From positions 1,010-65,009 of the forward strand of contig CAZWPX010000023.1 of the NCBI GenBank assembly GCA_964636125.1: a stretch of 64,000 nucleotides of DNA, written 5' to 3'. A program made the translations under genes and the position numbers. The stretch comes from an uncultured Desulfobacterales bacterium. GTDB lineage: Bacteria; Desulfobacterota; Desulfobacteria; Desulfobacterales; CAJINA01. This document shows, piece after piece, positions 9,901 through 51,314 of this stretch; position 1 is the stretch's first letter, and each line of letters begins with the position of its first letter. Under the pieces are notes generated by a model that was not told the DNA's origin, made no database searches, and saw nothing but the letters and a program-made list of their open reading frames with translations.

Positions 9901-11069
9901 TGGCGCTGTTCTCTTCAGCGGCCGGATTTTTTGGAAACGCCGGACAGGCCGACTATGCCATAGCCAATGAAATCCTCAATAAATCCGCCTTCAGGTTCAA
10001 AGCCCTCAATCCCGCCTGCCATGTGAACACATTCAACTGGGGGCCCTGGGACGGCGGCATGGTGACCCCCGAGCTCAAGCGCATGTTTGCGGATAAGCAC
10101 ATTGCCGTAATTCCCATGGAAGCCGGTTCCCGGCTCTTTGCCAACGAGCTCTCCGCGGCCGACACCACCACCCAGATCATGGTGGGCAGTTCAATGCGGG
10201 CCCGGCCGCAGCCGGGCAGCAGCGAACTGGGTGCCTACCGCATCACCCGTCGTTTGGTGCCGGAGGACAATCCCTTTTTACAAGATCACATGATCGGCCC
10301 AAACCCCGTACTGCCCACAGTGTGCGCCGGTGCCTGGATGGCAGAAGCCTGTGAAATGCTGTATCCCGGGTTCCAGTTTTTTACGGCCACCGGGTACCGG
10401 ATGTTCAAAGGAATTGTATTCGATGGCACCCAGGCCCAACACTACACGCTGGACATCGAAGAGGTCGTAAAGGATGAGGACCACATTAATTTCAATGTCA
10501 CCATATCCAGCCGCAAAAAGAACGGCAAGCCGCTGCACCACTATACGTCCGGCATAGAGCTTGTCAGCCGGATCCCGGAACCGCCCCTTTATAGCCGGGT
10601 TGACTTCGAACCCGCCGGGGCCCTGGAGGGCGGACAGCTGTACCGGAACGGAACGCTGTTTCACGGCCCAATTTTCCAGGGCATTGAACGGGTCATCAAC
10701 CTTGGCGAGCACGGTTTGACAGTCGAGTGCCGCCTCCCTGAAGTGGCCCACAGAGACCAGGGCCAGTTTACGATTGGAACCTTTAATCCGTACGCGGCCG
10801 ACATCCAGTTCCAGTGTATGCTGGTTTGGGTACGCCGCCAGCTGGAGGCGGCCAGCCTGCCGGCCCAGGCCCAAACCGCCGAGCATTACCTGTCGGTACC
10901 GGCCGGCCGTAAATTCTACGTCTCTCTGTCCGTCAAAGCCAGCAGCTCGGCCAGTGTCACGGCCGACATCACCACCCACGACCGGGAGGGGCGTATCTAT
11001 TCAAGAATCGCGGGTGCCACCGTCATTGTCAGTAAACAGCTGGACAGGCTTTTTTCAAAGACGGGATAG
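3978..11069 (+). CDS. pfaA: PfaA-like multidomain PUFA/polyketide synthase: KS-AT-ACPx3-KR-DH
   Basis: KS motifs [15 protein letters not shown] and [8 protein letters not shown]. AT motifs FPGQGSQY and GHSFGE. Three ACPs carry [10 protein letters not shown]. KR has a [12 protein letters not shown] Rossmann motif. The C-terminal PKS-type DH has [13 protein letters not shown]. Confidence 0.95.
   Translation: [2363 protein letters not shown]
7720..8550 (+). repeat. Three tandem ~300-bp ACP-coding repeats inside pfaA
   Basis: The near-identical block [30 protein letters not shown] recurs with 300-nt periodicity; ctggggatcgattccatc occurs near 7813, 8113 and 8413. Confidence 0.9.
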
Positions 11070-11082
11070 TCACAGGGGACCC

Positions 11083-13392: not shown

Positions 13393-13450
13393 ATGATGCC
13401 GGCCACAGACACAAGCGTCTGCCAAAAGGCGTGGAAGAATATTAACGCAG

Positions 13451-13481
13451 GTCAGGGTGCGAGCGCAGCTAGTTCCCTGAC
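13451..13481 (+). repeat. Conserved intergenic hairpin, copy 1
   Basis: GTCAGGG-tgcgagcgcagctagtt-CCCTGAC. A second copy with the same loop is at 39808..39838. Confidence 0.5.
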
Positions 13482-13543
13482 AGAAGCACACAAACGGGGA
13501 ACCGGGAACCTTGAACCCGGAACCCCGACTCACTAGAGGATCT

Positions 13544-26388: not shown

Positions 26389-27894
26389 CTAAAAAGCACC
26401 AATAACCGTGCCGAACAGATCCAGCACAGGTTTGGGATAAAGTCCCAGCCCCAGGGCCAAGGCCGCCAGGGCCAGCAGGGGCAGGCTCATGGATAGAGAC
26501 GGGTCGGATGGCGGATGGCCTGATACGGATGGTTTTTGCGGGCCAAAAAAGATCCGGATACCGACCAGAAACGTGTACACAAGGGTTAAGATGGTTGAAA
26601 GTACCGCCAGCAGGACGACAAACAGCCCCATGGGCGAGCTGTGAAATGCCTTGAAGGCCCCCACAAACAGTATCCATTTGCCCACAAACCCACTGGTAGG
26701 CGGCAGGGCGGAAAGAATAAGCGCGGCCGAAAACCAGAGTACCCCGGTCAGGGGCATGCGCGACCAGAGGCCCCCCATATCTTTCAGCTTCCGTGACTCC
26801 ACGTGATAAACCAAAATTCCGGCTGTTGAGAACAGGATCGCCTTGCCGATTATGTGGCTTAAGAAATAGAACATGCCCCCCGTGACTCCCCAGACTGTCA
26901 TGACACTTATGCCAAGCACCGAATAAGAAATCTGGCTGATCGTGGAACAGGCGCAGAACCGTTTGACGTCTGTCTGGGCCAGCGTCAACAGGGCCCCGTA
27001 GATCATGGTAGCGGTGGCCAGAATCAGCATGGGGAGAACCAGCGGGGTAAGCTCATTTTGAAGAGGTAAAATCAGGACCCGCACTGCCACGTAAACGGCT
27101 ATATTGGCATAAATCGCCAGCAAGCCTGCGATGCAGGTGGGATGCTCGGCATGCACCCAGGGCATCCAGACGTGCAGCGGTATGATGGCCAGTTTGGTCG
27201 CCAGACCCAGTAAAATGATAACCGCGATCCAGATGGTCACGGGATTGCCCGCCAGACGCGGTAATTCGGCAATTTCGAAACTTCCAATCTGCACGTACCC
27301 CATGATGATGCCGATCAGGAAAAATGTTGCTCCAACAACCCCCCAGAAAAGACACATCAGGGCAACCTTGTAGCGCGTAATATAATCGGAATATCCGAAT
27401 TGTGCCATGATGAAGTAAAGGGGAATAATGGTTAACAGCTCCATGAAAAAGTAGACCGACAACAGATTCGTGGCAAAGGCAACCCCCATAAAACCGGTGG
27501 GGAAGAAAAGATAGAGCAGAAAGAACCGGCGGAAATAGAGATTGTAGACCCGGTGGGAACATTGTCCGTATATAAGCTCGATCCGGTGTTCGACGTAGTG
27601 AAGCGAGTAGATGGCCAGGGCCAGGCAAATCAGGTTGATAATCAGGGCCATAGGCAGGCTTAAACCGTCCGCCAGCATATTAAGACTGACTTCAGGGCCG
27701 ATGAAATACTGCTCACGCAGGACCTCGCCCCCATATACGCGGATACCCGCAAAGCCCAGCAGCAACGTGGTGTAGACGAGCGTGGCGATGGTAATCCACC
27801 CGGGTAAATGGCTTTTCCGGGCGCTGCGGGTGAACCCTGTCACGGCTGCCGCTACCAGCGGCAGGCCCACTATCTGGAGAAGTAAATAGGGCAT
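26389..27894 (-). CDS. MrpD/NuoM/NuoN-family antiporter-like subunit (4th copy, operon-distal)
   Basis: 501 aa and about 14 TM helices. Proton-conducting membrane transporter pattern: HVWMPWVHAEHPTCIAGLLA and FCACSTISQISYSVLG. Confidence 0.85.
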   Translation of the reverse strand: MPYLLLQIVGLPLVAAAVTGFTRSARKSHLPGWITIATLVYTTLLLGFAGIRVYGGEVLREQYFIGPEVSLNMLADGLSLPMALIINLICLALAIYSLHYVEHRIELIYGQCSHRVYNLYFRRFFLLYLFFPTGFMGVAFATNLLSVYFFMELLTIIPLYFIMAQFGYSDYITRYKVALMCLFWGVVGATFFLIGIIMGYVQIGSFEIAELPRLAGNPVTIWIAVIILLGLATKLAIIPLHVWMPWVHAEHPTCIAGLLAIYANIAVYVAVRVLILPLQNELTPLVLPMLILATATMIYGALLTLAQTDVKRFCACSTISQISYSVLGISVMTVWGVTGGMFYFLSHIIGKAILFSTAGILVYHVESRKLKDMGGLWSRMPLTGVLWFSAALILSALPPTSGFVGKWILFVGAFKAFHSSPMGLFVVLLAVLSTILTLVYTFLVGIRIFFGPQKPSVSGHPPSDPSLSMSLPLLALAALALGLGLYPKPVLDLFGTVIGAF

Positions 27895-27898
27895 GGTT

Positions 27899-29668
27899 TT
27901 ATCCGGTCCAATAGATCATGATCCACAATAATACGATGAAAAACAGTAAAATATGTGTCAGGTTAAAAGAGAGCAGCTTGACCTCCGTTTTTAAATAGCG
28001 GGCCCGGGCATGGATGAACTCCGGAAGGGCGGTCAGCTTTTTGTGAAAGAGATAATCGTTTCTCTCTTCAGTGCCCACGGCCCACCGGGGCGATGCTTTC
28101 AAGGTTGTCACGACTCCCAGCAGGGCGCGCTCCATGTTTTCAAAAAAGCGTTGCAGCGGCTTTTCGCAAAAAAGGATAAATTGCCGCCCCGGCAGACGCA
28201 GGAACCAGTCGGCATCCAGATTGACGGCCCGCATTTCAGCCGGGTAGTAACCGGAGAGAACCAGCAGCGTGAAGGCCAGCGCCCCGAACATGAGCAACTC
28301 CAGGACGCCGATCACGTGAAAAGCGGTGTAGGGTATGAAATCAACCGGATACGGCAAAATACGGTAAAGAGGGTCTGGATAGACACCCAAGAACACACAG
28401 ATGAAGGCCGCCATGCCCATGGCCAGGCGCATGTTGATCGGGGGCTCCTTGGTCCGGATGCCGGAATCATGACCGAAAAAGATAAAAAAGGGCACCTTGA
28501 TGCCGGCGTGGTGAAACACGCCCGCGGAGGCGAACAGCAGCATGAACCAGACGATGGTTAAATGCTCCTCGGCCACGGCGGTAATCGTCATGGATTTGCT
28601 GATAAAACCGCTGAAAAGCGGAAAGGCCGAAATGGAGGCCGCCCCGATCATGCAGCAGACCGCTGTATAAGGCATGGTTTTATAAAGTCCCCCAAGGTCG
28701 GTCCCCCTTATTTTACCGGTCATATGCAAGACGGCTCCGGTGGACATGAACAAGAGCGCCTTGTAGATGATATGGCAGAAGGCATGGGCGGCGACACCGT
28801 TCAAGGCCAAGTGTGTCCCGATGCCGATGCCGCAAACCATAAAACCCACCTGGTTGATGAGACTGTAGGCCAGGACGCGGCGCATGTCATTGGCAATCAC
28901 CGCATAGAAAATGGGGAAACAGGTCATAAAGGCGCCCGCCCAGATAAGAAAAGGGGTGCCCGGATAGGTCCTGGCCAGGATGTAGACCGCACTTTTAGTC
29001 GTCAGGGCGCTCATGAACACAGCCCCGGTGACCGTGGCCCGGGGGTAGGCATCCGCCAGCCAGGCGTGCATCGGAAAAACGACGGCGTTTAAACAGAACC
29101 CGATGAATATCAGATAGGTGGAAGGATCGCTCAATCCGATATAGGCAAAGGCAATGGTGTCCCGTTCCAGGAAGTATAAAATAATGCCGGCCAGTAAACA
29201 GAGCCCCCCGAAAAAGTGCCACAGGAAGTATCGCAGGGCGGCCTTGTTAGAGTCCTCGGTCCTGCGTGCGAGGATCAGGAAAACCGAGGCCAGGGCCATG
29301 GCCTCCCAGAAAAAATAGAGCGAAATCAAATCGCCGACAAAGGTCACCCCCAGAGCCCCGCCGGCATAGAACAGGGCCGCGACGTGCTGGCCATCGTCTT
29401 TGACGTGGAGCGCGTAAATTACACCTATCAAGGTGATTAAAACGAAAACATATCCGAAAACCATGCTCAGCCGGTCCACCCGCCCCAGAATGAGGTCCTG
29501 GTTCAAAAAGGGCACAATCCAGTAGGTGCCGCTGTCCATTGCCAGCAGATTGACAAAGGCCAGCACCGGCAGCATGACCAGATAGGCGGCTTTCAGCCGT
29601 CCTTTCAGCACCGGGACCAGGAGCGCCCCGGCCATGAAGATGAATGCGGGCGGCAGAGGCTTAATCAT
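27899..29668 (-). CDS. MrpA/NuoL-like antiporter subunit with a C-terminal amphipathic extension + terminal TM
   Basis: 589 aa with HAWLADAYPRATVTGAVFMSALTTKSAVY and LAYSLINQVGFMVCGIG. The last ~110 aa (…FLRLPGRQFILFCEKPLQRFFENMERALLGVVTTL…LTHILLFFIVLLWIMIYW) resemble a NuoL-type lateral helix plus an anchor TM. Confidence 0.8.
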   Translation of the reverse strand: MIKPLPPAFIFMAGALLVPVLKGRLKAAYLVMLPVLAFVNLLAMDSGTYWIVPFLNQDLILGRVDRLSMVFGYVFVLITLIGVIYALHVKDDGQHVAALFYAGGALGVTFVGDLISLYFFWEAMALASVFLILARRTEDSNKAALRYFLWHFFGGLCLLAGIILYFLERDTIAFAYIGLSDPSTYLIFIGFCLNAVVFPMHAWLADAYPRATVTGAVFMSALTTKSAVYILARTYPGTPFLIWAGAFMTCFPIFYAVIANDMRRVLAYSLINQVGFMVCGIGIGTHLALNGVAAHAFCHIIYKALLFMSTGAVLHMTGKIRGTDLGGLYKTMPYTAVCCMIGAASISAFPLFSGFISKSMTITAVAEEHLTIVWFMLLFASAGVFHHAGIKVPFFIFFGHDSGIRTKEPPINMRLAMGMAAFICVFLGVYPDPLYRILPYPVDFIPYTAFHVIGVLELLMFGALAFTLLVLSGYYPAEMRAVNLDADWFLRLPGRQFILFCEKPLQRFFENMERALLGVVTTLKASPRWAVGTEERNDYLFHKKLTALPEFIHARARYLKTEVKLLSFNLTHILLFFIVLLWIMIYWTG

Positions 29669-29909
29669 AGTAGTCTTCCTTTTTCTTGACCAGTGCGCGC
29701 AGCCCTTTGGCGATGAATATCAAGCTGACGCACCCGATGAACCCGTAGGCCGCAAAAAAGCAGGGGACCTCTTCCCATGCGAAATGGCCGTGCTTGGGAA
29801 CAAACGGATCAATGGCCAGCAGCAAAACCAGGGCGATATAAAAAAAGATCCGGACTCTTTTTTGATTGCGGGCAGAATCGAGAAACGTGAGCTCCTTTTT
29901 CGGCGGCAT
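29661..29909 (-). CDS. Small membrane protein (2 TM) inside the mrp-like operon
   Basis: 82 aa. Its stop overlaps the downstream start by 8 nt. Hydrophobic segments are IFFYIALVLLLAI and FFAAYGFIGCVSLIFIA. Confidence 0.5.
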   Translation of the reverse strand: MPPKKELTFLDSARNQKRVRIFFYIALVLLLAIDPFVPKHGHFAWEEVPCFFAAYGFIGCVSLIFIAKGLRALVKKKEDYYD

Positions 29910-29921
29910 ATCTATTTTCTC

Positions 29922-30113
29922 CTAGTAGTAAAAAAAAGTTACGCCCAGATGGAGCAGGCCAATTAAAACCATGAGAAAAAAAATCTTCTTGTAAAAGGGA
30001 TCGGCGGTATGTGAAAGCTCCATTTTTTCTTCAAATCCGGTGAGCCAGGCGGTAATTTCGCCATCGTCCTGCCGGTAGATGATTTCCTCGCCGTCTTTTT
30101 CAATGCCCGCCAT
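29922..30113 (-). CDS. Small protein with a C-terminal TM, inside the mrp-like operon
   Basis: 63 aa with an acidic N-terminus and IFFLMVLIGLLHLGVTFF. Tightly packed between operon genes (12-16 nt gaps). Confidence 0.45.
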   Translation of the reverse strand: MAGIEKDGEEIIYRQDDGEITAWLTGFEEKMELSHTADPFYKKIFFLMVLIGLLHLGVTFFYY

Positions 30114-30129
30114 TGCGATCCTCGCAAGC

Positions 30130-31644
30130 TTAAGGGTTGAAGAGATTGTTTACCGCAATTTCAACCAGATCCAGGATGAAAAAAGTCCCCGGAAAAAAAC
30201 AAAACACAATCGAAAAAATAGCCGTCAGCGCAAGCGGGACAACCATGAACAGGTAAAGCGGACGACTGGTCTCCAACCTCGCCACGGCTGCGCTGCCCCC
30301 GGCTGTGTCTTCCAGGGGAATGTCAAAAAAGGCGGTTTTCACGATGGGGAAAAAGTAGATCACATCCAGAAGGGAACTGACCAGGATAACACCCAGGAAA
30401 ATCAAATGCCCTGACTGGACGGATCCGAGGCAGAGATACCATTTGCTGATAAAGCCGGCCACCGGCGGTGCACCGCACATCCCGACGGCACCGACTGTAA
30501 AGGCGGCCATGGTGATCGGCATCTGCCGGCCGATACCGGTCAACTGGCTGATGGCTTTCTTGCCGGTGATCACCATGATAGTGCCGGCGCAAAGAAAAAG
30601 TGTGATTTTCATGAAAGCATGAAAAGGAATGTGGATCATGGCGCCTTTAATGCCGAAAGGGCTCAACAAAGCCACACCGAACAGGATGTAGGAAAGCTGG
30701 CTGATGGTGGAATAGGCCAGGCGGCGTTTCAGGTTGTCCTGGCCGATGGCCAGAAATGAGGCCACAATCATCGTAAAGGAGGCCACCCCTCCCAGCAGCA
30801 GACCCAGCCCCAGTTCCGAGAAGAGATCGATGCCGAAGATATGGCACACGATCCTGACAAACCCGAAGACACCGGCCTTGACAACCGCCACGGCATGTAA
30901 AAGGGAGCTGACCGGGGTAGGTGCGACCATGGCGGCCGGCAACCAGGAATGCAGGGGCATCCAGGCCGCTTTCATGGAGCCCAGTGCAAACAGGACAAAA
31001 AGCACGATCAGGGTCCACCGGGGCGCGGTGCTGGTGTCCAGGATACCACCGTCTGTGAATTGGGTTGTGCCGGCCAGGGCATACGTCAAGACCACGGCTG
31101 CGAATAAAAACCAGCCGGAAGCAAGCAGGTAGGTCAGATACTTCCGGGTGGCGGCAAAGGCCTCTTCGTCTTCGTGATGGGCAACCAGCCAGTAGGTGGA
31201 CAGCGTCAGGGCTTCATAAAACACGTAGAAGGTAACCAGGTTTTCAGCCATGGCGATGCAGACCGCCGAGAAGATCGCCAGCGCGAACATGCCGTAGTAG
31301 CGGGTCTGGGCATGCTCCTGCAAAGCGCGCATATATCCGATGGAGTAGAGCGAAACGAGAATCCAGAGAAAGGAGGCGGTGATGGCAAAAAGAAGGCCGA
31401 AGGCATCCACCCTGAATCCCAGTTCAAGCCCGGGACAAATGTCAATCAGGCGCAGCACGATCACTTTCCCGGCCAGAATAGGCGGTGCCATGGAGATGAC
31501 AACGGCAAACAACAGCCCCGCCGCGACCAGGGTGCAGGCCTCCCTGACATTGGGCTGTTTGCGGCAGATATAGATCATGCCGGCGCCCAGCAGCGGACAG
31601 CCCAGCGCCAGGATCGGTTTCAAAGATGCGACGGTTCCGGTCAT
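30130..31644 (-). CDS. MrpD/NuoM/NuoN-family antiporter-like subunit (2nd copy)
   Basis: 504 aa with HSWLPAAMVAPTPVSSLLHAVAVVKAGVF and LAYSTISQLSYILFG. ATGA overlap with the upstream gene. Confidence 0.85.
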   Translation of the reverse strand: MTGTVASLKPILALGCPLLGAGMIYICRKQPNVREACTLVAAGLLFAVVISMAPPILAGKVIVLRLIDICPGLELGFRVDAFGLLFAITASFLWILVSLYSIGYMRALQEHAQTRYYGMFALAIFSAVCIAMAENLVTFYVFYEALTLSTYWLVAHHEDEEAFAATRKYLTYLLASGWFLFAAVVLTYALAGTTQFTDGGILDTSTAPRWTLIVLFVLFALGSMKAAWMPLHSWLPAAMVAPTPVSSLLHAVAVVKAGVFGFVRIVCHIFGIDLFSELGLGLLLGGVASFTMIVASFLAIGQDNLKRRLAYSTISQLSYILFGVALLSPFGIKGAMIHIPFHAFMKITLFLCAGTIMVITGKKAISQLTGIGRQMPITMAAFTVGAVGMCGAPPVAGFISKWYLCLGSVQSGHLIFLGVILVSSLLDVIYFFPIVKTAFFDIPLEDTAGGSAAVARLETSRPLYLFMVVPLALTAIFSIVFCFFPGTFFILDLVEIAVNNLFNP

Positions 31645-33146
31645 GGCCGCACCTCCAGTCCGAAGCTGGTATTAATGGCGCTGACCAGGGGGTCGAAAGC
31701 ACCGGTAATCCAGATAATGCCGATGACAAATGTTAAAACCGCGGTGGACAAAATCGGGATCAGCATACTCAGGGGAGCCTCGGCCACCGGGGGGGCCAGG
31801 GCGGCACTGCTTTCACTATCCGCCCGGATGTACATGATTTCAACAACCCGCCAGAAATAGACGATCATCAGCAGCGTACTGAAAAAAATGACCCCCACCA
31901 ACAGGTACTTCTGGGCATCCAGCGCGGCCAGGAGCAAATACCATTTGGTCACAAATCCCGCGCTGGGCGGCATCCCGATCATGGAGAGGGCGGCGAGTAT
32001 CAGCGCGAAACTGGTATAGGGCATTTTGCGGCTGAGACCCTCGAATTGCCTGATATCCACCAGGCCGGCCTTGTAGATAAACGCTCCGGCCACCATGAAC
32101 ATGCACACCTTGATGACCGCATGATTCAAGATATGCATCAGGCCCGGGGTCAGGCCAAAAGGGGTCAGGGGCGCAAGCGTGACGGCCAGGACGATATAGC
32201 CGACATTGGCAACGCTCGAATAGGCCAGCATTCGTTTAAAATCATGCTGATAGATCGCAAATATGGAGCCGGCCACGATGGCGATGGCGGCTATCGCCCG
32301 CAGGATATCGAACAGCGGCAGGAAAGTGGTGACAAACTCAAGGGTAAAGACCGAAAAAATAATGCGAACCAGCGCATAGACCAATGTCTTGGCCATAGCG
32401 CTGGAAATGATCACACTGACCGCCGAGGGTGCGTAAGTATAAGCATCCGGCTGCCAGGCGTGTAAAGGGAAAAGTGCGATTTTGATGCCGAATCCAATCA
32501 GGATGAAAACAAACGCGGCCTGGATGGCTGTCGATGTGTAAAGGGGCGGCAGTAGAACACGCAGATCTTCCATATTCAGGGATCCGGTCATGATATAAAG
32601 ATATCCTACCCCGATCAGGTAAAAACAGGCGCCGATGGTCCCGAGGATCAGATACCGGAAACTGGCCAGGGTGGCTCTCCCCTTGCCGATGGCAATGAGG
32701 GCGTAACCGCTCAGGGACACGACCTCCAGAAGCACAAAAAGGTTAAACATGTCGGCGGTGACGATGATCCCGAGCAGCCCCGTGATCAACAGAAGGTACA
32801 GGCTCCAGAACAGTGCGACCTTGTCCGGCAGTTCCGCCTCTACGGATCTTCGGCTGTAGACGGCGGCGAGCAGGGACAGGGCTGTTACCAGGATCAGCAT
32901 GCAGGCATTGAAGTGGTCTACCCGGTACTCGATCCCCCAGGGGGGCTGCCAGCCGCCCAGCAGGTACTGGATCGTCCCCTGGGCAACAACGGATTTCAAC
33001 AGGACACAGGCTGAAATAAGGCTGACCCCCAGCGCGACAAGCGCCAGCGAAAAAGCGAAACGTTTCAACCACCAGCCTGACAGGAATATCAGGAAAGATA
33101 TCAGCAGCGGGGCAATAACAACGATAACTGGTAATTGCAGGCTCAT
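31641..33146 (-). CDS. MrpD/NuoM/NuoN-family antiporter-like subunit (1st copy)
   Basis: 501 aa with HAWQPDAYTYAPSAVSVIISSAMAKTLVY and LAYSSVANVGYIVLA. Its start overlaps the stop of the cNMP-binding gene (ATGA). Confidence 0.85.
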   Translation of the reverse strand: MSLQLPVIVVIAPLLISFLIFLSGWWLKRFAFSLALVALGVSLISACVLLKSVVAQGTIQYLLGGWQPPWGIEYRVDHFNACMLILVTALSLLAAVYSRRSVEAELPDKVALFWSLYLLLITGLLGIIVTADMFNLFVLLEVVSLSGYALIAIGKGRATLASFRYLILGTIGACFYLIGVGYLYIMTGSLNMEDLRVLLPPLYTSTAIQAAFVFILIGFGIKIALFPLHAWQPDAYTYAPSAVSVIISSAMAKTLVYALVRIIFSVFTLEFVTTFLPLFDILRAIAAIAIVAGSIFAIYQHDFKRMLAYSSVANVGYIVLAVTLAPLTPFGLTPGLMHILNHAVIKVCMFMVAGAFIYKAGLVDIRQFEGLSRKMPYTSFALILAALSMIGMPPSAGFVTKWYLLLAALDAQKYLLVGVIFFSTLLMIVYFWRVVEIMYIRADSESSAALAPPVAEAPLSMLIPILSTAVLTFVIGIIWITGAFDPLVSAINTSFGLEVRP

Positions 33147-33628
33147 TCTATTTTAAACAGGCCTTTCATGTCCGGATGATGCTGTATCACTTTGAGAAAT
33201 TGCTCCGTGCGATGGTCATAGCGCTTTTTCAGGATTATCAGGAGCCTCTGGCTCAGTAAAAATCCCATCTGCGGATCCTGGGCGCACAGCTTTCTCAACT
33301 GATTGCCGCGTATGGAAAATATTTCACAGGGCTCGGTGCATACGGCGTCGGTGGTGTAGTGCCCCTCCTCGATCATGGTTGACCAGCCGAATGCATAGCC
33401 GGATTTGATGGAACCGACAGAGACGGTGACCAGTTCGGTCATAGTCTGCTCTAAAAGCACCTTGCCCCTTTTGACCATATAAAAGCGATCGGCAACATCG
33501 CCCTGCCTGAAGATGACCTCCTGATCATGGAATGACAGGACATCGACAGACGCACCTACCCGTGCGAGCATATCGTCTTCAAGATAGGTCATGATGACGA
33601 TCTCTTTTAACTCTTCAATGGGAACCAC
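33143..33628 (-). CDS. Stand-alone cyclic-nucleotide-binding (CAP effector) domain protein
   Basis: 161 aa. A strong SD (AAGAGGAGG) precedes it. The pattern VIFRQGDVADRFYMVKRGKVLLEQ...GYAFGWSTMIE...AVCTEPCEIFSIRGNQLRKL is a cNMP-binding beta-barrel plus hinge helix. No DNA-binding domain is present. Confidence 0.85.
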   Translation of the reverse strand: MVPIEELKEIVIMTYLEDDMLARVGASVDVLSFHDQEVIFRQGDVADRFYMVKRGKVLLEQTMTELVTVSVGSIKSGYAFGWSTMIEEGHYTTDAVCTEPCEIFSIRGNQLRKLCAQDPQMGFLLSQRLLIILKKRYDHRTEQFLKVIQHHPDMKGLFKIE

Positions 33629-33660
33629 GGCACCTCCTCTTCTTTATGACGGCAACCGTT

Positions 33661-33827
33661 CAAAAGACCCTTTTGAGACAGCTTTTAGAAGCTGCCTCAA
33701 GAATGAATTTTGGTCCAAGGTCAAGGCGGCCGCGAGGTTCCAACCGGAGGAATACTCCGGTATTTCGAGGATTGGAACCAAGCGCCCAACGCCGAGATTG
33801 GGCCAAAAGACTTTTTTGAGACAGCTT
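33661..33827. repeat. Structured 199-bp gap in the mrp-like operon: 24-nt direct repeats flanking nested inverted repeats
   Basis: The direct repeats are caaaagacccttttgagacagctt (33661-84) and caaaagacttttttgagacagctt (33804-27), 22/24 identical. A GAGACAGCTT-ttag-AAGCTGCCTC hairpin starts at ~33675. GGTTCCAACCGGAG-gaata-CTCCGG...TTGGAACC spans 33736-79. Confidence 0.5.
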
Positions 33828-34223
33828 CTAATCTTCTTCCAACTGGGCCAGAATCTCATCCTCCTCCAGGGTGTGGTACTGCTTGTGCAGCTTGATAATC
33901 AATGCCAGAGCCACACCGAGGGTCGCCACGGCCACGACGATGGCCGTCAGCATCAGTACATGGGGCAGCGGGTTGGCATAATTCACCGCCTGAGCAGCAT
34001 GCGTTTCGATGCCATGTGCATGTTCAATAATCGGTAGCGTGGCTCTATGCTTGGCCCCGATGGAAATAAAAAAGAGGATGACCGCCGTTTGCAAAATGTT
34101 CATCCCGACGATTTTCTTTACCATGTTGTTCTTGGCAATCATGGCGTACAGCCCGACCATCATCAGGACAATGTACACCCAGTAATTCAGCTTGGCGGTA
34201 ATAATCGCAACCAGTTCATGCAT
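33828..34223 (-). CDS. mrpC: Mrp subunit C (NuoK-like)
   Basis: 131 aa. KKIVGMNILQTAVILFFISIG and PLPHVLMLTAIVVAVATLGVALALI are typical of MnhC/MrpC/MbhG. Confidence 0.85.
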   Translation of the reverse strand: MHELVAIITAKLNYWVYIVLMMVGLYAMIAKNNMVKKIVGMNILQTAVILFFISIGAKHRATLPIIEHAHGIETHAAQAVNYANPLPHVLMLTAIVVAVATLGVALALIIKLHKQYHTLEEDEILAQLEED

Positions 34224-34225
34224 AC

Positions 34226-35056
34226 TTATAGCCCTTCATCAAATTTCCCGCCCGAGGAGAGGTTGTAGTAAAGGCTGATCATGGCCGCCATCACAGCCAT
34301 CCCCACGCCGATTTCCACGATGAGAATTCCATGGGAACGGGCGGTCACCGGGTCAACCCCCAAAACGGGAGCAAGCGCGCTGTAATCCAGAAAATTGGCA
34401 CCCTGCAGCAGGCAGAGTCCGCCGGTGGCGGCATACAGGAACACACCCAGGGTACACAGCAGCACTGCAATTTTTTCACCGAGTCTGTGCAAAGATGATC
34501 GCAGGTTATGGGATATGGCGTAGACAATGACCGAGGCGCCCAGAATGACCCCGCCCTGGAAGCCGCCCCCGGGACTGTGATGACCGTGGGCAATGACGTA
34601 CAGGGCGAAAAGCTGGATAAAGGGAATGATCATGCGGCAGGTGGTCTTGACGACAACGCCATGGGGAACCCATTGCAGGTCAATCCTTTCAAAGTCGGCG
34701 GATTCGCGGGGATAGCGGCCGCCCTTTTTTATCCGGAAAGTCGTGCCGGTGGGAATGTGTCGATACATACGATTTTCCGGCTCATCGGTTTTGGTTTGCC
34801 GCAGCAGCAGGAAACAGGCGGCTACCGCTGTAAAAATGACAATGGTCTCGAACATCGTGTCATACCCGCGATAGTCAGCCAGGACTGCGGTGACAATGTT
34901 CGGGACCGAGGTATCTTCAAGGGTATGCTCGATATAGTAAGGTGATACATGTGTATTTGCAGGCGAACCGGGATCGCCCCAGTCGGGAAAATCCAGTGTG
35001 CAGTACATTAAAGAAATGCCGAATATCAGCACAACAACTTTCGCTATGGTGTTCAA
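34226..35056 (-). CDS. mrpB: MrpB/MnhB-domain subunit (MbhE+MbhF-like fusion)
   Basis: 276 aa. NIVTAVLADYRGYDTMFETIVIFTA and HSPGGGFQGGVILGA are MnhB hallmarks. Confidence 0.8.
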   Translation of the reverse strand: MNTIAKVVVLIFGISLMYCTLDFPDWGDPGSPANTHVSPYYIEHTLEDTSVPNIVTAVLADYRGYDTMFETIVIFTAVAACFLLLRQTKTDEPENRMYRHIPTGTTFRIKKGGRYPRESADFERIDLQWVPHGVVVKTTCRMIIPFIQLFALYVIAHGHHSPGGGFQGGVILGASVIVYAISHNLRSSLHRLGEKIAVLLCTLGVFLYAATGGLCLLQGANFLDYSALAPVLGVDPVTARSHGILIVEIGVGMAVMAAMISLYYNLSSGGKFDEGL

Positions 35057-35298
35057 TCCCTGGTTCTCCTTGAAGTTCTGAATACAGCGGCGACAAACAG
35101 CACCGTACTGATGCCGGCCCCCACGGATGCTTCGGTAAAGGCGACATCAACCGCCCCCATGATGGCCCACAAAAGACACATCATGAAGCTGTAAGCCCCA
35201 AAAAGGATGGCCGCCCCCAGCAGGTCTTTCACCGTGATGGCAGCTATGGCGGTAATAACGACCATTAGAAGCACGATCATTTCAATAGCCCATATCAT
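35053..35298 (-). CDS. DUF4040 / MbhD-like small membrane subunit
   Basis: 81 aa with LLGAAILFGAYSFMMCLLWAIMGAVDVAFTEASVGAGISTVLF. 4-nt overlaps on both sides. Confidence 0.7.
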   Translation of the reverse strand: MIWAIEMIVLLMVVITAIAAITVKDLLGAAILFGAYSFMMCLLWAIMGAVDVAFTEASVGAGISTVLFVAAVFRTSRRTRD

Positions 35299-35618
35299 GG
35301 TCTGTTCTTCTCCCTGGTCCAGGGACGCAGGCCGGCTCTGACACCTGCGTCAATGATGGCATGCGTTGCCGTGGGGCTCGTAAAGAAAACGAAGACAACG
35401 ATCAGTATGATCTTAAAAGCGGTTAACAGAGAATGGCCGGTCAAATCCTGGAGGGTGTACAGCGCCATGGCCGACATGGCCAGGACATGTCCGGCGGTGT
35501 CCAGTTTACCCGCCGGGTGCAGGCGGGTATAAAAATCAGGCAACCGGATGATCCCAATAGATCCTCCGGTAAAAAACAGGAGCCCGCCCACGAAAAGCAC
35601 TATGACAATGACATCCAT
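35295..35618 (-). CDS. mrpG: Mrp subunit G
   Basis: GGSIGIIRLPDFYTRLHPAGKLDTAG and FTSPTATHAIIDAG are MnhG/MrpG signatures. Confidence 0.85.
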   Translation of the reverse strand: MDVIVIVLFVGGLLFFTGGSIGIIRLPDFYTRLHPAGKLDTAGHVLAMSAMALYTLQDLTGHSLLTAFKIILIVVFVFFTSPTATHAIIDAGVRAGLRPWTREKNRP

Positions 35619-35623
35619 GCAAA

Positions 35624-35920
35624 CTACCTTTCCCCGGATGGGGGGGCTTCGTCATACAGCCCTTTTCTCTTCTGGAAAAACCTAGAGGCCGCCAGCACGG
35701 CAATAAAATTCAACATGGCGTAAGCCAGCGCAATATCAACAAACATGTCAACCCGCTGGTAAAGCAGCCCGATCAGAACTAGCAGTACGGTCGTCTTGGA
35801 GCCGATGGCGTTGACCCCGATAAGGCGATCGAGAATAGTGGGTCCGGTTACCGCCCGGTAAAGCGGGAGCAGCATAGCCAGGCATAAAAAAATGCCGGTA
35901 TAGAGAAAGAAAATATCCAT
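35624..35920 (-). CDS. mrpF: Mrp subunit F
   Basis: LYRAVTGPTILDRLIGVNAIGSKTTVLLVLIG...DIALAYAMLNFIAVLAASRF is the MrpF/PhaF pattern. Confidence 0.85.
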   Translation of the reverse strand: MDIFFLYTGIFLCLAMLLPLYRAVTGPTILDRLIGVNAIGSKTTVLLVLIGLLYQRVDMFVDIALAYAMLNFIAVLAASRFFQKRKGLYDEAPPSGER

Positions 35921-36510
35921 TATTTTGCGAAAACCTTCGCAATTTTGGCTTCCATTTCACCAGGAAGCGGTTTTCCTGATTCCATATCGATACAGTGTAC
36001 GGAGAACTTTCCTGCGGCCGTCACATGGACCGTGATGGTCCCGGGTGTCAACGTAATGGAATTGGCAAAAGTGGTACGGGCGACATCGCTGGAGAGTTTG
36101 CTGTCGAATTCTATGATCTTGGGATCGATCAGTTCCCGCATACGCGGGTGAAACACCAGGTACATGACATGCAGGTTTGCCAGAAAGATTTGATAAAGCA
36201 GCCATGGAATATAGCCCACAAACCGCAACCATACGAGAGGCAAATTCCGGTCCAGGGGCGCTGGAAAGAGTAAATCCCCGGATAAAAAAGCGACAATACC
36301 GCAGGAAACGGCACCCAAGATCAGATGGAATGCGTCAAATCTCCCTGAAAACACCAGCCACATTGCAAACATTGCCAGGAAGGTCAGCCAGAAGCCTGCG
36401 CCGAACCGCCTCGTTTTGACAGACAGGGGACTGCTTTCGACCTTTATTGATCTCGGCGGGTTGGATTGGGGCAAGCCGTTAGGGTCAGAAGTACGATTGG
36501 AAGTAGGCAT
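35920..36510 (-). CDS. mrpE: Mrp subunit E (with a ~45-aa N-terminal extension)
   Basis: FAMWLVFSGRFDAFHLILGAVSCGIVA...ANLHVMYLVFHP...TFANSITLTPGTITV is the MnhE pattern. It is the first gene of the operon. Confidence 0.8.
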   Translation of the reverse strand: MPTSNRTSDPNGLPQSNPPRSIKVESSPLSVKTRRFGAGFWLTFLAMFAMWLVFSGRFDAFHLILGAVSCGIVAFLSGDLLFPAPLDRNLPLVWLRFVGYIPWLLYQIFLANLHVMYLVFHPRMRELIDPKIIEFDSKLSSDVARTTFANSITLTPGTITVHVTAAGKFSVHCIDMESGKPLPGEMEAKIAKVFAK

Positions 36511-37695: not shown

Positions 37696-38157
37696 TTAAC
37701 CCAGTGCAAAAACCAGCAGGTTGAGCGTATCCTGATAAATACAGGGGTCCTTGCTCGCCCGCGGTCCGGCCACGTTGAGCACCTCGATACGCTGGAGTTC
37801 GATCCACGAGGCCACCAGGGAGGCGGCATCGTTCAAGTTGCTGTGGTTGTTTAAATCGATTCCCAGCAGCTGTTTGCCCCGCCGCAGGACCACCACCCGG
37901 GTGTAATCCGTCCCGCCGGTGGGCGTTCCCCGGGAAATCAGCAGGGTCCCGTCGGACTCCAGCACATTTTTGTCTGTCCGTTTGCTGTAGCTGTCGGTGG
38001 GCATTTCCACCAGGTTGTAGGTTTCCGGCAGGGACCCGTCTTCGGTGAGTCGTCCTTTGGGGAGCCACCCGCCATGGGGAATGCCCAGTCGTATGGCCGC
38101 ATCCAGGGCTGCCTGGTCCGCACCCGTCTGACCGCCTGATATGATCTTCTTCAGCAT
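37696..38157 (-). CDS. SLOG-superfamily protein, putative molybdenum-cofactor-carrier-like (YpsA-like)
   Basis: Start at 38157 (GGTGAAGG SD). MLKKIISGGQTGADQAALDAAIRLGIPHGGWLPKGR is the N-terminal GGQTGAD Rossmann-like motif of that family. Confidence 0.7.
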   Translation of the reverse strand: MLKKIISGGQTGADQAALDAAIRLGIPHGGWLPKGRLTEDGSLPETYNLVEMPTDSYSKRTDKNVLESDGTLLISRGTPTGGTDYTRVVVLRRGKQLLGIDLNNHSNLNDAASLVASWIELQRIEVLNVAGPRASKDPCIYQDTLNLLVFALG

Positions 38158-51311: not shown

Positions 51312-51314
51312 TTT

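What the first reader, a model, noticed from the sequence alone, without database searches (positions are those of the whole stretch)
26389..36510. Mrp/Mbh-type operon made only of membrane-arm subunits, with four NuoL/M/N-like antiporter proteins
**Seen in the sequence**
- The minus-strand gene order is mrpE-F-G, DUF4040, mrpB, mrpC, a gap, a cNMP-binding protein, D-like, D-like, two small TM proteins, an A/L-like subunit with a lateral-helix-type tail, and D-like.
- No subunit with Fe-S or NiFe Cys motifs, or NuoB/C/D/H/I-like features, occurs in or next to the operon. It ends 3 nt from a convergent gene.

**Established knowledge**
- The E-F-G-(DUF4040)-B-C-D order is the arrangement of the MbhA-H module of archaeal Mbh/Mbx-type complexes.
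- Classical Mrp has two antiporter-like subunits and complex I has three.

**Inference**
- An assembly with four such subunits and no redox module is unusual.
- It could be a high-stoichiometry cation/proton antiporter, or the membrane arm for a catalytic partner encoded elsewhere.
Basis: partly seen in the sequence, partly recalled or inferred. Interest (0 to 1): 0.6.

Follow-up and report, generated by a model that had tools for sequence, protein, structure and literature searches.

The report
Stand-alone Mrp antiporter with four pumps
This is a sodium/proton-exchanger gene cluster of the known Mrp kind that carries four proton-channel subunits instead of the usual two, plus two soluble helper proteins. 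The layout recurs in many uncultured marine sulfate reducers and methane-oxidising archaea, but nobody appears to have studied it.

Summary
Thirteen tightly packed minus-strand genes (26389-36510) encode MrpE, F, G, MbhD, an MbhE+MrpB fusion, MrpC, a cNMP-fold protein, four PF00361 antiporter-like subunits and two small membrane proteins. There is no Fe-S, NiFe or NuoH-like gene in the cluster or its flanks.

It is a group 3 (MrpA-less, Mbh/Mbs-ordered) stand-alone Mrp, and databases already name its subunits Na+/H+ antiporter subunits.

About 100 related loci show a widespread three-pump core, E-F-G-MbhD-MbhE/B-C-D1-D2-s82-L589. The window carries a derived four-pump subtype with an added NuoM-like subunit, D4. 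D4's nearest relatives end a different three-pump Mrp type. The subtype occurs in Desulfobacterales-type genomes, a second bacterial lineage and Methanosarcinales genomes.

All four pumps keep the charged-axis residues, apart from two conserved Lys-to-Asn changes.

- The convergent 219-aa gene is a conserved partner. It is a tandem alpha+beta-barrel protein with no family assignment.
- The cNMP-fold protein lacks the cyclic-nucleotide-binding Glu and Arg.

Synteny gives no support for a redox partner encoded elsewhere. A higher H+/Na+ ratio is plausible but untested.

Verdict: a new variant of a known kind, of moderate interest.

The parts
35920..36510 (-). MrpE/MbhA-like subunit (196 aa)
   Evidence: PF01899 MNHE at 118.5 bits. 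The SITLTPGT motif is conserved in 52 orthologs.
35624..35920 (-). MrpF/MbhB-like subunit (98 aa)
   Evidence: PF04066 at 53.6 bits. The GPxxxDR motif is conserved.
35295..35618 (-). MrpG/MbhC-like subunit (107 aa)
   Evidence: PF03334 at 77.5 bits. The RxPDxYxRxH motif is conserved.
35053..35298 (-). MbhD/MbsD-like subunit (81 aa; part of the MrpA C-terminal domain)
   Evidence: PF13244 at 76.2 bits. The motif AVDVAFTEASVGAGIS is nearly invariant in 47 orthologs.
34226..35056 (-). MbhE + MrpB/MbhF fusion (276 aa, TTG start), built like MbsE
   Evidence: PF20501 MbhE matches residues 32-88 and PF04039 MnhB matches residues 135-260. NCBIfam PRK12507 scores 242.6 bits. The SPGGGFQGG motif is conserved.
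33828..34223 (-). MrpC/MbhG/NuoK-like subunit (131 aa)
   Evidence: PF00420 at 71.5 bits. The NPLPxVLMLTAIV motif is conserved.
33629..33827 (-). 199-nt intergenic gap holding a 24-nt direct repeat and a long hairpin; specific to this lineage
   Evidence: Repeat copies lie at 33661-33684 and 33804-33827, with none expected by chance. Minimum free energy is -77.4 kcal/mol, z = -4.4. The gap is 3-235 nt and unrelated in sequence in relatives. No Rfam match.
33143..33628 (-). Soluble cNMP-fold protein (161 aa, GTG start) with a degenerate phosphate-binding cassette
   Evidence: PF00027 at 59.9 bits. No TM segment. In 21 orthologs the cassette reads SFGWSAM...Y(T/S), so the canonical Glu and Arg are replaced by Trp and Tyr. 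It sits between mrpC and D1 in the Desulfobacterales-type four-pump loci. One or two copies follow L589 in other Desulfobacterota loci.
31641..33146 (-). D1: MrpD/MbhH/MbsH-type antiporter-like subunit (501 aa)
   Evidence: PF00361 at 179 bits. The best solved relative is MbsH (6u8y_H) at 243 bits, followed by MbhH and MrpD. E141, K222, K253, H342/K346 and K401 are present.
30130..31644 (-). D2: antiporter-like subunit with a NuoL/MrpA-type core and no lateral helix (504 aa)
   Evidence: PF00361 at 196 bits and PF00662 at 26.2 bits. Solved relatives are MbhH, NuoL, NdhF and MrpA. It carries the TPVSSLLHA motif. E144, K225, H250, K256, H342/K346 and K401 are conserved in 63-65 of 65 orthologs.
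29922..30113 (-). s63: small protein with a soluble N-terminus and one C-terminal TM
   Evidence: No family match. One TM. Eighteen orthologs share QDDGEITA...EEKMEL.H. It was detected in most four-pump loci and in a few three-pump loci (L019, L020).
29661..29909 (-). s82: two-TM protein that always precedes L589
   Evidence: Found in 82 loci from bacteria and archaea, with the conserved motif FYAVYGF..CV.LI..AK.LR....EDYYD. It overlaps the L589 start, median -11 nt over 105 pairs. Only 7 of 34 members hit PF24838 (8xMP), all below the cut-off.
27899..29668 (-). L589: MbsH'/MrpA-N-type antiporter-like subunit with TM15, a loop, a lateral helix and TM16
   Evidence: NCBIfam PRK12668 at 712 bits against a cut-off of 564. 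The best solved relative is MbsH' (6u8y_X). The AlphaFold2 model shows helices at 491-557 and TM16 at 566-588. MrpA, NdhF and NuoL are the top fold matches. E122, K225, H299/K303 and K358 are conserved, while the TM7 Lys is Asn194 in 77 of 89 homologs.
26389..27894 (-). D4: NuoM/NdhD/MbhH-like fourth antiporter-like subunit (501 aa)
   Evidence: PF00361 at 175 bits. The best NCBIfam match is NuoM, TIGR01972, at 221 bits against a cut-off of 263.8. Solved relatives are MbhH, NdhD1 and NuoM. E152, K234, H347/K351 and K406 are conserved, while the TM8 Lys is Asn264 in 23 of 24 orthologs. It follows L589 at a median of 4 nt in 62 loci. Its sister clade is the terminal subunit of D1-L(675-706 aa)-D4' Mrp operons.
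25726..26385 (+). P219: conserved soluble partner, a tandem ferredoxin-like (dimeric alpha+beta barrel) protein with no family assignment
   Evidence: It lies next to the operon, before mrpE or after D4, in the Desulfobacterales-type four-pump loci with enough flank where it was looked for, and was not found in three-pump or archaeal loci. No Pfam or NCBIfam match. It has an internal duplication, E = 2e-15. The AlphaFold2 model has pLDDT 89.6. Foldseek matches tandem ABM-like proteins and coproheme decarboxylase at TM about 0.6 and about 10% identity. Members give weak hits to PF04673 and NIPSNAP.

Best explanation
**What it is.** The cluster encodes one stand-alone, redox-independent cation/proton antiporter of the Mrp (CPA3) family. 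It belongs to the group 3 lineage, whose gene order and subunit splitting match the membrane arm of archaeal MBS/MBH.

**Proposed parts.**
- MrpE, F, G and the MrpB half of the fusion protein form the Na+ module.
- MbhD, the MbhE half and MrpC form the small connecting proton path.
- Four antiporter-like subunits form a chain of proton paths: D1 (MrpD/MbsH-like), D2 (NuoL-core-like), L589 (MbsH'-like) and D4 (NuoM-like).
- The lateral helix of L589 clamps D2 and D1. D4 probably sits on the free outer face of L589, the face that binds the NuoH-like anchor in MBS.
- The small protein s82 is a fixed partner of L589.

**How it arose.** The four-pump form came from a widespread three-pump core by capture of a D4-type subunit from another three-pump Mrp lineage.

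**Likely consequence.** More protons would move per Na+, giving a higher gear ratio between proton and sodium gradients in marine anaerobes. The two soluble proteins, the degenerate cNMP-fold protein and P219, would act as regulators or accessory factors.

**Shown versus inferred.**
- Shown: gene content, conservation, residue patterns and evolutionary relations.
- Inferred: single-complex assembly, the position of D4, ion specificity, stoichiometry and the roles of the soluble proteins.
For: **Family membership.**
- All Mrp domain types are present and no redox family is.
- The canonical motifs of MrpE, F, G, B, C and MbhD are conserved across 47-59 orthologs.
- L589 passes the NCBIfam equivalog PRK12668. 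Its homologs are named Na+/H+ antiporter subunit D by NCBI and JGI.

**Relation to solved structures.**
- D1's best solved relative is MbsH, and L589's is MbsH'.
- D2 is closest to MbhH and to NuoL/MrpA-type subunits, and D4 to MbhH and NdhD/NuoM-type subunits.

**Functional residues.** All four subunits keep the TM5 Glu, the TM11 His/Lys and the TM12 Lys.

**Operon structure.**
- Genes are tightly coupled. L589 to D4 is a median of 4 nt in 62 loci, and s82 overlaps L589.
- The same order occurs in more than 40 loci from three lineages.

**Origin of D4.** The D4 clade that follows L589 is monophyletic. It is sister to the D4' subunits of D1-L67x-D4' Mrp operons, whose scanned flanks (L134) also held no redox genes.

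**Precedent.**
- A stand-alone group 3 Mrp with the same E-F-G-B-B'-C-D order functions with Na+ in P. furiosus (PMC8415708).
- A cyanobacterial multi-MrpD Mrp is a proven Na+/H+ antiporter (PMC5703873).
Against: - There is no biochemical evidence for this subtype.
- No multimer model could be run, so assembly of all four pumps into one complex is inferred from operon structure only.
- The lateral-helix region of L589 is barely longer in four-pump loci (93-94 aa) than in related three-pump loci (median 88 aa). D4 is therefore not accommodated the way the extra NuoM is in 2M complex I, and it may be loosely attached or not attached at all.
- L589 lacks the TM7 Lys and D4 lacks the TM8 Lys. One or both paths may work differently or not at all.
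- s82-L589 pairs also occur alone in other genomes.
- The L589 structure model is of low confidence, pLDDT 61.
Confidence: 0.55

Rival explanations
1. The cluster is the membrane arm of a respiratory, redox-driven complex of the Mbh/Mbs/Mbx or complex I type. Its catalytic module (NuoH-like anchor, NuoB/C/D/I-like subunits) would be encoded elsewhere in the genome.
For: - The gene order and the best solved relatives (MbsH, MbsH') are those of the MBS membrane arm.
- The TM15-lateral-helix junction, which contacts the peripheral arm in MBS (PMC7684303), carries a motif conserved in all 89 L589 homologs.
Against: - No PF00146/NuoH-like, hydrogenase-like or Fe-S gene lies in the operon or its flanks.
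- Flank clustering of 16 four-pump loci recovered only P219 and sensor-kinase-like genes as recurrent neighbours.
- The scanned flanks of a sister-type locus hold only stress, transport and sensor genes.
- Operon edges are conserved.
- Known respiratory relatives encode the anchor and catalytic genes in the same operon (established knowledge of mbh, mbs and nuo operons).
Confidence: 0.1
2. The genes do not build one four-pump particle. D4, and possibly the s82-L589 pair, are exchangeable or separately acting modules. They could be alternative distal subunits used under different conditions, or an independent transporter.
For: - s82-L589 pairs occur with no other mrp gene within about 10 kb (L051, L056, L047). 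They also occur as a second pair next to a full operon (L057-59, L065). An anammox locus has three L589 paralogs.
- No lateral-helix extension accompanies D4.
- D4-type subunits belong natively to another Mrp lineage.
Against: - D4 follows L589 at a median of 4 nt in 62 loci, which points to co-expression.
- D4 that follows L589 forms one conserved clade.
- D4 keeps the TM5 Glu that normally faces the TM12 Lys of the neighbouring subunit.
- Antiporter-like subunits are not known to be stable on their own, apart from DabB-type systems. The partner family of those systems, PF10070, did not appear in any Pfam scan run here.
Confidence: 0.2
3. The two conserved soluble proteins, the degenerate cNMP-fold protein and the tandem alpha+beta-barrel protein P219, dock on the membrane complex. 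They would make it a ligand-gated or chemically driven ion translocator rather than a plain secondary antiporter.
For: - Both proteins are conserved next to or inside the operon in the Desulfobacterales-type four-pump loci.
- The cNMP-fold protein has a conserved but non-canonical ligand pocket.
- P219 has invariant Cys161-Glu162-Gly163-Arg164 and His202. Its fold is shared with cofactor-binding enzymes.
Against: - Both proteins are absent from the archaeal four-pump loci and from the second bacterial four-pump lineage. They are therefore not needed for the four-pump core.
- P219 changes position and strand between loci.
- There is no recognisable cofactor motif, and the fold matches are at only about 10% identity.
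Confidence: 0.1

Closest known systems
Stand-alone group 3 Mrp of Pyrococcus furiosus (mrpEFGBB'CD; PMC8415708)
   Same: - It has no mrpA gene and no redox module.
- It has the same E-F-G, then MbhD/E-type, MrpB-type, MrpC and MrpD-type order.
- It was shown genetically to use Na+ and to act in pH homeostasis.
   Different: - P. furiosus has one antiporter-like subunit and no lateral-helix subunit.
- The window has four antiporter-like subunits, one of them with a lateral helix. It also has s82, s63 and two soluble accessory proteins.
Membrane arm of the MBS sulfane-sulfur reductase (MbsA-E, G, H, H'; PDB 6U8Y, PMC7684303)
   Same: - MbsD-like is a separate protein, and MbhE+MbhF are fused as in MbsE.
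- D1's best solved relative is MbsH at 243 bits. L589's is MbsH', including the TM15-loop-lateral helix-TM16 arrangement.
   Different: - There is no MbsM anchor and no MbsJKLN catalytic module.
- Two further pumps are present, D2 between D1 and L589 in gene order and D4 after L589.
- The TM7 Lys of MbsH' (K217) is Asn in L589.
Cyanobacterial group 3 Mrp (Aphanothece halophytica mrpCD1D2EFGAB; PMC5703873)
   Same: - It is a stand-alone Mrp with more than one MrpD-type subunit and a short MrpA-C-terminal-type 'A'.
- It has proven Na+/H+ antiport activity.
   Different: It has a different gene order and fewer pumps. Its sequence relationship to the window's subunits was not tested here.
Complex I variants with extra pumps: Nitrospira 2M complex I, rhizobial green complex I, Manganitrophus Complex_I_3 (PMC9040806, citing Chadwick et al. 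2018)
   Same: They add antiporter-like subunits to a conserved membrane arm, with a proposed rise in ions moved per cycle.
   Different: - Those complexes are redox-driven.
- Their extra NuoM comes with a 26-aa insertion in the lateral helix.
- Here there is no redox module and no such insertion tied to D4.
ANME-specific Mnh/Mrp subtype (Sci Adv 2025, PMC12180501; bioRxiv 10.1101/2024.05.23.595608)
   Same: Methanosarcinales genomes (L027, L032, L038, L114) carry D1-D2-s82-L589-D4 operons with 56-68% identity to the window's large subunits. This fits a distinctive Mrp shared among anaerobic methane oxidisers and acquired by horizontal transfer.
   Different: - The papers report MnhBCEFG homologs and do not mention subunit number.
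- It was not shown here that these genomes are ANME or that the loci are the same ones.
- The archaeal loci have F-G-E order and lack the cNMP-fold protein and P219.

Membership tests
Mrp / CPA3 multisubunit cation:proton antiporter | All Mrp domain types are encoded together: MrpA/D-type PF00361, MrpA C-terminal domain (MbhD/MbhE), MrpB, MrpC, MrpE, MrpF and MrpG. | tested here: met
   PF00361 (four proteins), PF13244, PF20501, PF04039, PF00420, PF01899, PF04066 and PF03334 are all above their curated cut-offs.
Mrp / CPA3 multisubunit cation:proton antiporter | Conserved functional residues: the MrpF P...DR, MrpE TPGT, MrpG PDxYxR and MrpB GGGFxGG motifs, and in the large subunits the TM5 Glu, TM7 Lys, TM8 Lys/His and TM12 Lys. 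| tested here: inconclusive
   The small-subunit motifs are conserved. In the large subunits the TM5 Glu and TM12 Lys are present in all four, but the TM7 Lys is Asn in L589 and the TM8 Lys is Asn in D4.
Mrp / CPA3 multisubunit cation:proton antiporter | Na+(Li+, K+)/H+ antiport activity. | not testable with these tools
   This needs heterologous expression or vesicle assays.
Group 3 Mrp (definition in PMC8415708) | No full-length mrpA gene; only mrpD-type genes, sometimes in several copies. | tested here: met
   There is no protein of 700 aa or more that joins an antiporter core to the MrpA C-terminal domain. MbhD and MbhE are separate genes and four PF00361 genes are present.
NCBIfam PRK12668 'Na(+)/H(+) antiporter subunit D' (equivalog) | A whole-protein score above the curated cut-off. 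| tested here: met
   L589 scores 712.4 bits against a cut-off of 564, covering 577 of 584 profile positions. D1, D2 and D4 stay below the cut-offs of their best models.
MBH/MBS/MBX respiratory complexes | A NuoH-like membrane anchor (MbhM/MbsM) in the operon. | tested here: not met
   No such family was found in the 13 genes or in ten flanking genes. None was found in the scanned flanks of the sister type.
MBH/MBS/MBX respiratory complexes | NuoB/C/D/I-like catalytic subunits with Fe-S or NiFe Cys motifs. | tested here: not met
   No Pfam match and no Cx2-5C cluster in any product. The only Cx3C is a single CTEPC in the cNMP-fold protein.
Respiratory complex I, including the 2M type | NuoA, H and J together with the Q and N modules, and a lateral-helix insertion when a fourth pump is present. 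| tested here: not met
   No Nuo-specific families were found. The lateral-helix interval is 93-94 aa with D4 and a median of 88 aa without it.
DAB (DabA/DabB) CO2-uptake system | A PF00361 protein paired with a DabA (PF10070) protein. | tested here: not met
   PF10070 did not appear in any Pfam scan of the operon or its flanks.
Cyclic-nucleotide-binding regulators (CRP/PKA-type CNB domain) | A phosphate-binding cassette with a conserved Glu and Arg (FGE...R[ST]A). | tested here: not met
   The fold matches PF00027 at 59.9 bits. The cassette reads SFGWSAM...Y(T/S) in 21 orthologs, so Glu is replaced by Trp and Arg by Tyr. The canonical motif is quoted from established knowledge.
PF24838 8xMP (for s82) | A score above the Pfam gathering threshold. 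| tested here: not met
   The window protein scores 19.8 bits against a cut-off of 30. Only 7 of 34 family members give any hit.

The most novel reading that the evidence does not exclude
The four-pump Mrp, together with its two dedicated soluble proteins (a cNMP-fold protein with a re-tooled ligand pocket and a tandem alpha+beta-barrel protein of an undescribed family), would be a ligand-controlled or chemically driven ion translocator. That would amount to a new kind of input module on a complex-I-type membrane arm. The pump core would be shared by horizontal transfer between sulfate reducers and anaerobic methane-oxidising archaea, as an adaptation to life at the thermodynamic limit.
Probability: 0.1. 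Interest if true: 0.8.

Novelty: new variant of a known kind. Interest (0 to 1): 0.42.

Why it matters
- **Ion stoichiometry.** In the complex I superfamily the number of antiporter-like modules is thought to set how many ions move per cycle. How the modules are coupled is still debated.
- **A natural series without redox chemistry.** Stand-alone Mrp complexes now span one pump (P. furiosus), two (classical Mrp), three (the widespread core found here) and four (this subtype). The series allows a direct test of whether each added module adds a proton path, and whether a module outside the lateral-helix clamp can still be coupled.
- **Ecology.** The subtype appears in uncultured marine Desulfobacterales-type bacteria and Methanosarcinales archaea. 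These organisms depend on both Na+ and H+ gradients at very low energy yields, so the gear ratio of this exchanger could matter for their energy budget.
- **Two new leads.** The conserved soluble partners are families with no assigned function.

Tried and rejected
- **Source contig.** An exact-sequence look-up of the 589-aa protein's contig found nothing on record. The cluster look-up gave no name or accession. The organism is therefore known only through relatives: L001, a 'Deltaproteobacteria bacterium' MAG, is 77-94% identical across all 13 proteins.
- **AlphaFold2 model of L589.** The 39 homologs used are close (68-92% identity), and the model reached only pLDDT 61. Only its secondary structure and the fold class were used. 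Helix geometry was not measured.
- **s82 as an 8xMP member.** Rejected.
- **P219 family.** The profile found no solved relative by sequence and no Pfam or NCBIfam family. Only weak dimeric alpha+beta-barrel clan hits appeared.
- **Regulatory RNA.** Rfam found nothing credible in the 199-nt gap or the leader. The gap is not conserved.
- **Promoters and terminators.** The consensus scans were no more than modestly above the shuffled expectation, and no site was used in the argument.
- **DAB-type CO2 uptake and complex I membership.** Both were considered and rejected on missing partner genes.
- **Literature.** Five searches found no description of a four-pump stand-alone Mrp. A search for '8xMP' returned nothing relevant. 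The library lacks most subscription journals, so absence is not proof.
- **ANME paper supplement.** The supplementary text is not held. Identity with the 'ANME-specific Mnh' could not be checked.

Full report
**1. What is in the window**

The minus strand from 36510 to 26389 carries 13 ORFs that overlap or lie 2-16 nt apart, apart from one 199-nt gap. Pfam assigns them, in order, as follows:
- MNHE (MrpE)
- MrpF
- MrpG
- MbhD (DUF4040)
- a 276-aa fusion of MbhE and MnhB (MrpB)
- Oxidored_q2 (MrpC/NuoK-like)
- a 161-aa cNMP_binding protein
- two Proton_antipo_M proteins (D1, 501 aa; D2, 504 aa)
- a 63-aa ORF and an 82-aa ORF with no family
- a 589-aa Proton_antipo_M protein (L589)
- a 501-aa Proton_antipo_M protein (D4)

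A simple hydropathy scan gives one TM for the 63-aa product, two for the 82-aa product and none for the cNMP-fold protein. No product has an Fe-S-type Cys cluster.

Ten flanking genes were scanned. They include a solute-binding protein, a partial CdhD-domain ORF, PfaD, a cpYpsA protein, a Gate-domain membrane protein, sensor kinases and a nitroreductase, and two gave no Pfam match. None is NuoB/C/D/H/I-like.

The stop of D4 lies 3 nt from the stop of a convergent 219-aa ORF (25726-26385).

**2. The four large subunits**

Sequence searches against solved structures separate them into four types.

| Subunit | Closest solved relatives |
|---|---|
| D1 | MbsH (243 bits), then MbhH and MrpD |
| D2 | MbhH, NuoL, NdhF and MrpA at similar scores; it also has the N-terminal PF00662 domain and a TPVSSLLHA motif of NuoL/MrpA type, but no C-terminal extension |
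| L589 | MbsH' (6u8y_X), then MbhH and MrpA |
| D4 | MbhH, cyanobacterial NdhD1 and NuoM; its best NCBIfam model is NuoM, below the cut-off |

MbsH' is the MBS subunit that carries TM15, a long loop, the lateral helix HL and TM16 (PMC7684303).

L589 passes the curated NCBIfam equivalog PRK12668, 'Na(+)/H(+) antiporter subunit D' (712 bits against 564). Its AlphaFold2 model is of low confidence (pLDDT 61). The secondary structure nevertheless shows TM15 at 449-471, near-continuous helices at 491-557 and a terminal TM at 566-588. The best fold matches are the helix-bearing subunits MrpA, NdhF and NuoL, aligned over their full length.

L589 is therefore the equivalent of the N-terminal part of MrpA. 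MbhD and the MbhE half of the fusion supply the C-terminal part of MrpA. The fusion of MbhE with MbhF/MrpB is the arrangement of MbsE (PMC8415708).

**3. Channel residues**

Key positions were mapped through the HMMER alignments to MbhH, MbsH and MbsH', then scored in 24-89 orthologs per subunit.
- All four subunits have the TM5 Glu, the TM11 His/Lys pair and the TM12 Lys in the window. Across orthologs these are near-invariant in D2, L589 and D4. In D1 the TM11 pair is His/Lys in only 37 of 67 orthologs.
- D1 and D2 also keep the TM7 and TM8 Lys, and D2 has the NuoL-type TM8 His as well.
- In L589 the TM7 Lys is Asn194 in 77 of 89 homologs. It is Lys only in the alpha- and gammaproteobacterial versions.
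- In D4 the TM8 Lys is Asn264 in 23 of 24 orthologs.

The motifs of the small subunits are conserved across 47-59 orthologs:
- MrpF GPxxxDR
- MrpG RxPDxYxRxH
- MrpE SITLTPGT
- MrpB SPGGGFQGG
- MbhD AFTEASVGAG
- MrpC NPLPxVLMLTAIV

The parts needed for an Mrp-type Na+/H+ module and for four proton paths are thus under selection, with two consistent departures.

**4. Related loci**

A scan of one genome per species with L589 found 418 relatives, and the best 80 loci were mapped gene by gene.

A common core is E-F-G-MbhD-MbhE/B-C-D1-D2-s82-L589, with three antiporter-like subunits. It occurs in these groups:
- Desulfobacterales
- Geopsychrobacteraceae
- an anammox bacterium
- Kiritimatiellia
- Hyphomicrobiaceae, Kiloniellales and Rhizobiaceae
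- Gammaproteobacteria
- Methanosarcinales

The window's layout adds three things to this core: the cNMP-fold gene between C and D1, s63, and D4 after L589. It recurs in 13 full and 7 partial loci labelled Desulfobacterales, Desulfosarcina or 'Deltaproteobacteria'.

L001 is the closest. All 13 proteins are 77-94% identical, and it has the same convergent gene.

A metagenome scan with D4 added 80 loci.
- D4 homologs of 64% identity or more follow L589 wherever the upstream gene is on the contig.
- These fall into three lineages. The first is the Desulfobacterales type, with the cNMP-fold gene and the 219-aa gene. The second is a bacterial type with an extra MbhE/B-like gene between E and F and neither soluble gene. 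The third is an archaeal type with F-G-E order.
- Most D4 homologs of 52-61% identity end a different stand-alone operon, E-F-G-MbhD-MbhE-B-C-D1-L(675-706 aa)-D4'. A few follow an L589-type gene (L126, L141, L151).
- The long subunit of that operon has PF00662 plus PF00361. Its scanned flanks hold only stress, transport and sensor genes.

In a neighbour-joining tree the D4 subunits of the window type, which follow L589, form one clade. That clade is sister to a clade made mostly of D4' subunits (no bootstrap values).

The four-pump operon therefore looks like a hybrid: the D1-D2-s82-L589 core plus a D4 subunit taken from the D1-L-D4' lineage. L589 to D4 spacing has a median of 4 nt in 62 loci, and s82 overlaps the start of L589.

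**5. The lateral helix and the position of D4**

The interval between TM15 and TM16 of L589 falls into length classes:
- 93-94 aa in loci with D4
- 77-100 aa (median 88) in related loci without D4
- 61 aa in the alpha/gamma versions

D4 therefore did not arrive with the roughly 26-aa helix insertion that accompanies the extra NuoM of 2M complex I (PMC9040806).

A helix of about 55-67 residues would be 80-100 Å long. By comparison with complex I, this is enough to clamp L589, D2 and D1 (an inference from general structural knowledge). D4 would then sit outside the clamp, most simply on the free face of L589. That face binds MbsM in MBS. D4's TM5 Glu would then face L589's TM12 Lys. This placement is an inference only.

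The motif after TM15, G-x-Y-P-P-E-x-R-x-x-N-L-D-x-D-W-x-Y-R, is conserved in all 89 homologs.

**6. Accessory proteins**

*s82.* It precedes L589 in every lineage and has a conserved C-terminal EDYYD. It is not a credible 8xMP member.

*s63.* It has a conserved soluble N-terminus and one TM.

*The cNMP-fold protein.*
- It is conserved, but its phosphate-binding cassette reads SFGWSAM...Y(T/S). The Glu and Arg that hold the cyclic phosphate in canonical domains are replaced (the canonical motif is from established knowledge). It probably binds something else, or nothing.
- The 199-nt gap before it is peculiar to this genome. Relatives have 3-235 nt of unrelated sequence there.
- In the window the gap holds a 24-nt direct repeat and folds into a long hairpin, z = -4.4.

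*The convergent 219-aa gene (P219).*
Homologs lie directly before mrpE or after D4 in the Desulfobacterales-type four-pump loci with enough flank in the genome set, and in many of the metagenome loci. None was found in three-pump or archaeal loci.
- It has no Pfam or NCBIfam family. It has 558 homologs, mostly unnamed. It is an internal duplication.
- It gives a confident model, pLDDT 89.6, of two ferredoxin-like beta-alpha-beta-beta-alpha-alpha-beta units.
- Foldseek matches tandem ABM-type 'putative monooxygenases', coproheme decarboxylase/chlorite dismutase and sulfur oxygenase reductase, at about 10% identity and TM about 0.6.
- Members give weak hits to two families of the dimeric alpha+beta-barrel clan. 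Its function is unknown.

**7. Comparison with what is known**

The stand-alone P. furiosus Mrp is mrpEFGBB'CD with one pump. The cyanobacterial cluster is mrpCD1D2EFGAB and is a proven Na+/H+ antiporter.

A Nitrospira paper notes extra NuoM/L-like genes after mrpD (PMC7784846). A study of ANME-3 reports an ANME-specific Mnh/Mrp subtype but does not mention subunit number (PMC12180501 and its preprint).

Five searches found no paper that describes a stand-alone Mrp with four antiporter-like subunits. The library is incomplete, so this is not proof of absence.

**8. Verdict**

The finding is real and correctly read as an Mrp/Mbh-type cluster with four pumps and no redox module. It is a member of a known class and is already annotated as Na+/H+ antiporter subunits. 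It is not a new kind of system.

What is new:
- the defined four-pump subtype and its hybrid origin
- its spread across bacterial and archaeal anaerobes
- the two conserved Lys-to-Asn changes
- the two soluble partners

The reading as a membrane arm for an absent catalytic module is unsupported by synteny. The reading as a higher-ratio antiporter is the best current explanation, but it rests on inference.

I rate it a new variant of a known kind, with interest 0.42.

Noticed in passing
window 3978-22344 (+): A Pfa-type polyunsaturated fatty acid / polyketide synthase cluster with four ORFs. The first is a 2363-aa KS-AT-ACP(x3)-KR-DH protein. The second is an 872-aa ORF with no Pfam match. The third is a 2398-aa protein with two KS domains and two FabA domains. 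The fourth is a 546-aa PfaD-type enoyl reductase.
   Followed up: partly
window 33629-33827 (-): The mrpC-to-cNMP gap holds a perfect-core 24-nt direct repeat (33661-33684 and 33804-33827). The repeat copies pair the ends of a long hairpin with MFE -77.4 kcal/mol and z = -4.4. The gap is not conserved in relatives, so this may be a small inserted repeat element or a transcript-processing site.
   Followed up: partly
L051 9760-11767; L056 3071-5084; L047 6585-8577; L057-L059 and L065: s82-L589 gene pairs occur with no other mrp gene within about 10 kb. They also occur as a second, convergent pair beside a complete operon. A nitrate-reductase-delta-like chaperone gene lies near the pair in L051.
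   Followed up: partly
L066 (Candidatus Anammoxibacter MAG) 7866-17390: This anammox locus has three L589-type paralogs. Two follow the three-pump core in tandem and one lies on the opposite strand.
   Followed up: no
L151 1786-21479: A metagenome contig carries an archaeal-order (F-G-E) four-pump operon. A second trio, D1-L(781 aa)-D4', lies 5 kb downstream. Both D4 lineages therefore coexist on one contig.
   Followed up: no
L589 homologs, TM15-TM16 interval (window residues 472-566): The lateral-helix region is 61 aa in the alpha/gamma-proteobacterial homologs, which keep the TM7 Lys. It is 77-100 aa in the Desulfobacterota, anammox and archaeal homologs, which have Asn at that position. 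All these operons encode at least three pumps.
   Followed up: partly
window 47190-54239 (+): A 1373-aa DUF4347 plus cadherin-like protein is followed by a 974-aa hybrid histidine kinase with PAS, receiver and Hpt domains.
   Followed up: no
window 37967-38037 (-): A sub-threshold Rfam hit to the L2-Alphaproteobacteria ribosomal leader, 24.6 bits against a gathering score of 37.8. It lies inside the cpYpsA gene region and is probably a chance match.
   Followed up: no
L002 (JAIVWA010000391.1): A contig binned as 'Gammaproteobacteria' carries s63-s82-L589-D4 at 67-79% identity to the window. All other close relatives are Desulfobacterales-type, so this may be a binning error.
   Followed up: no
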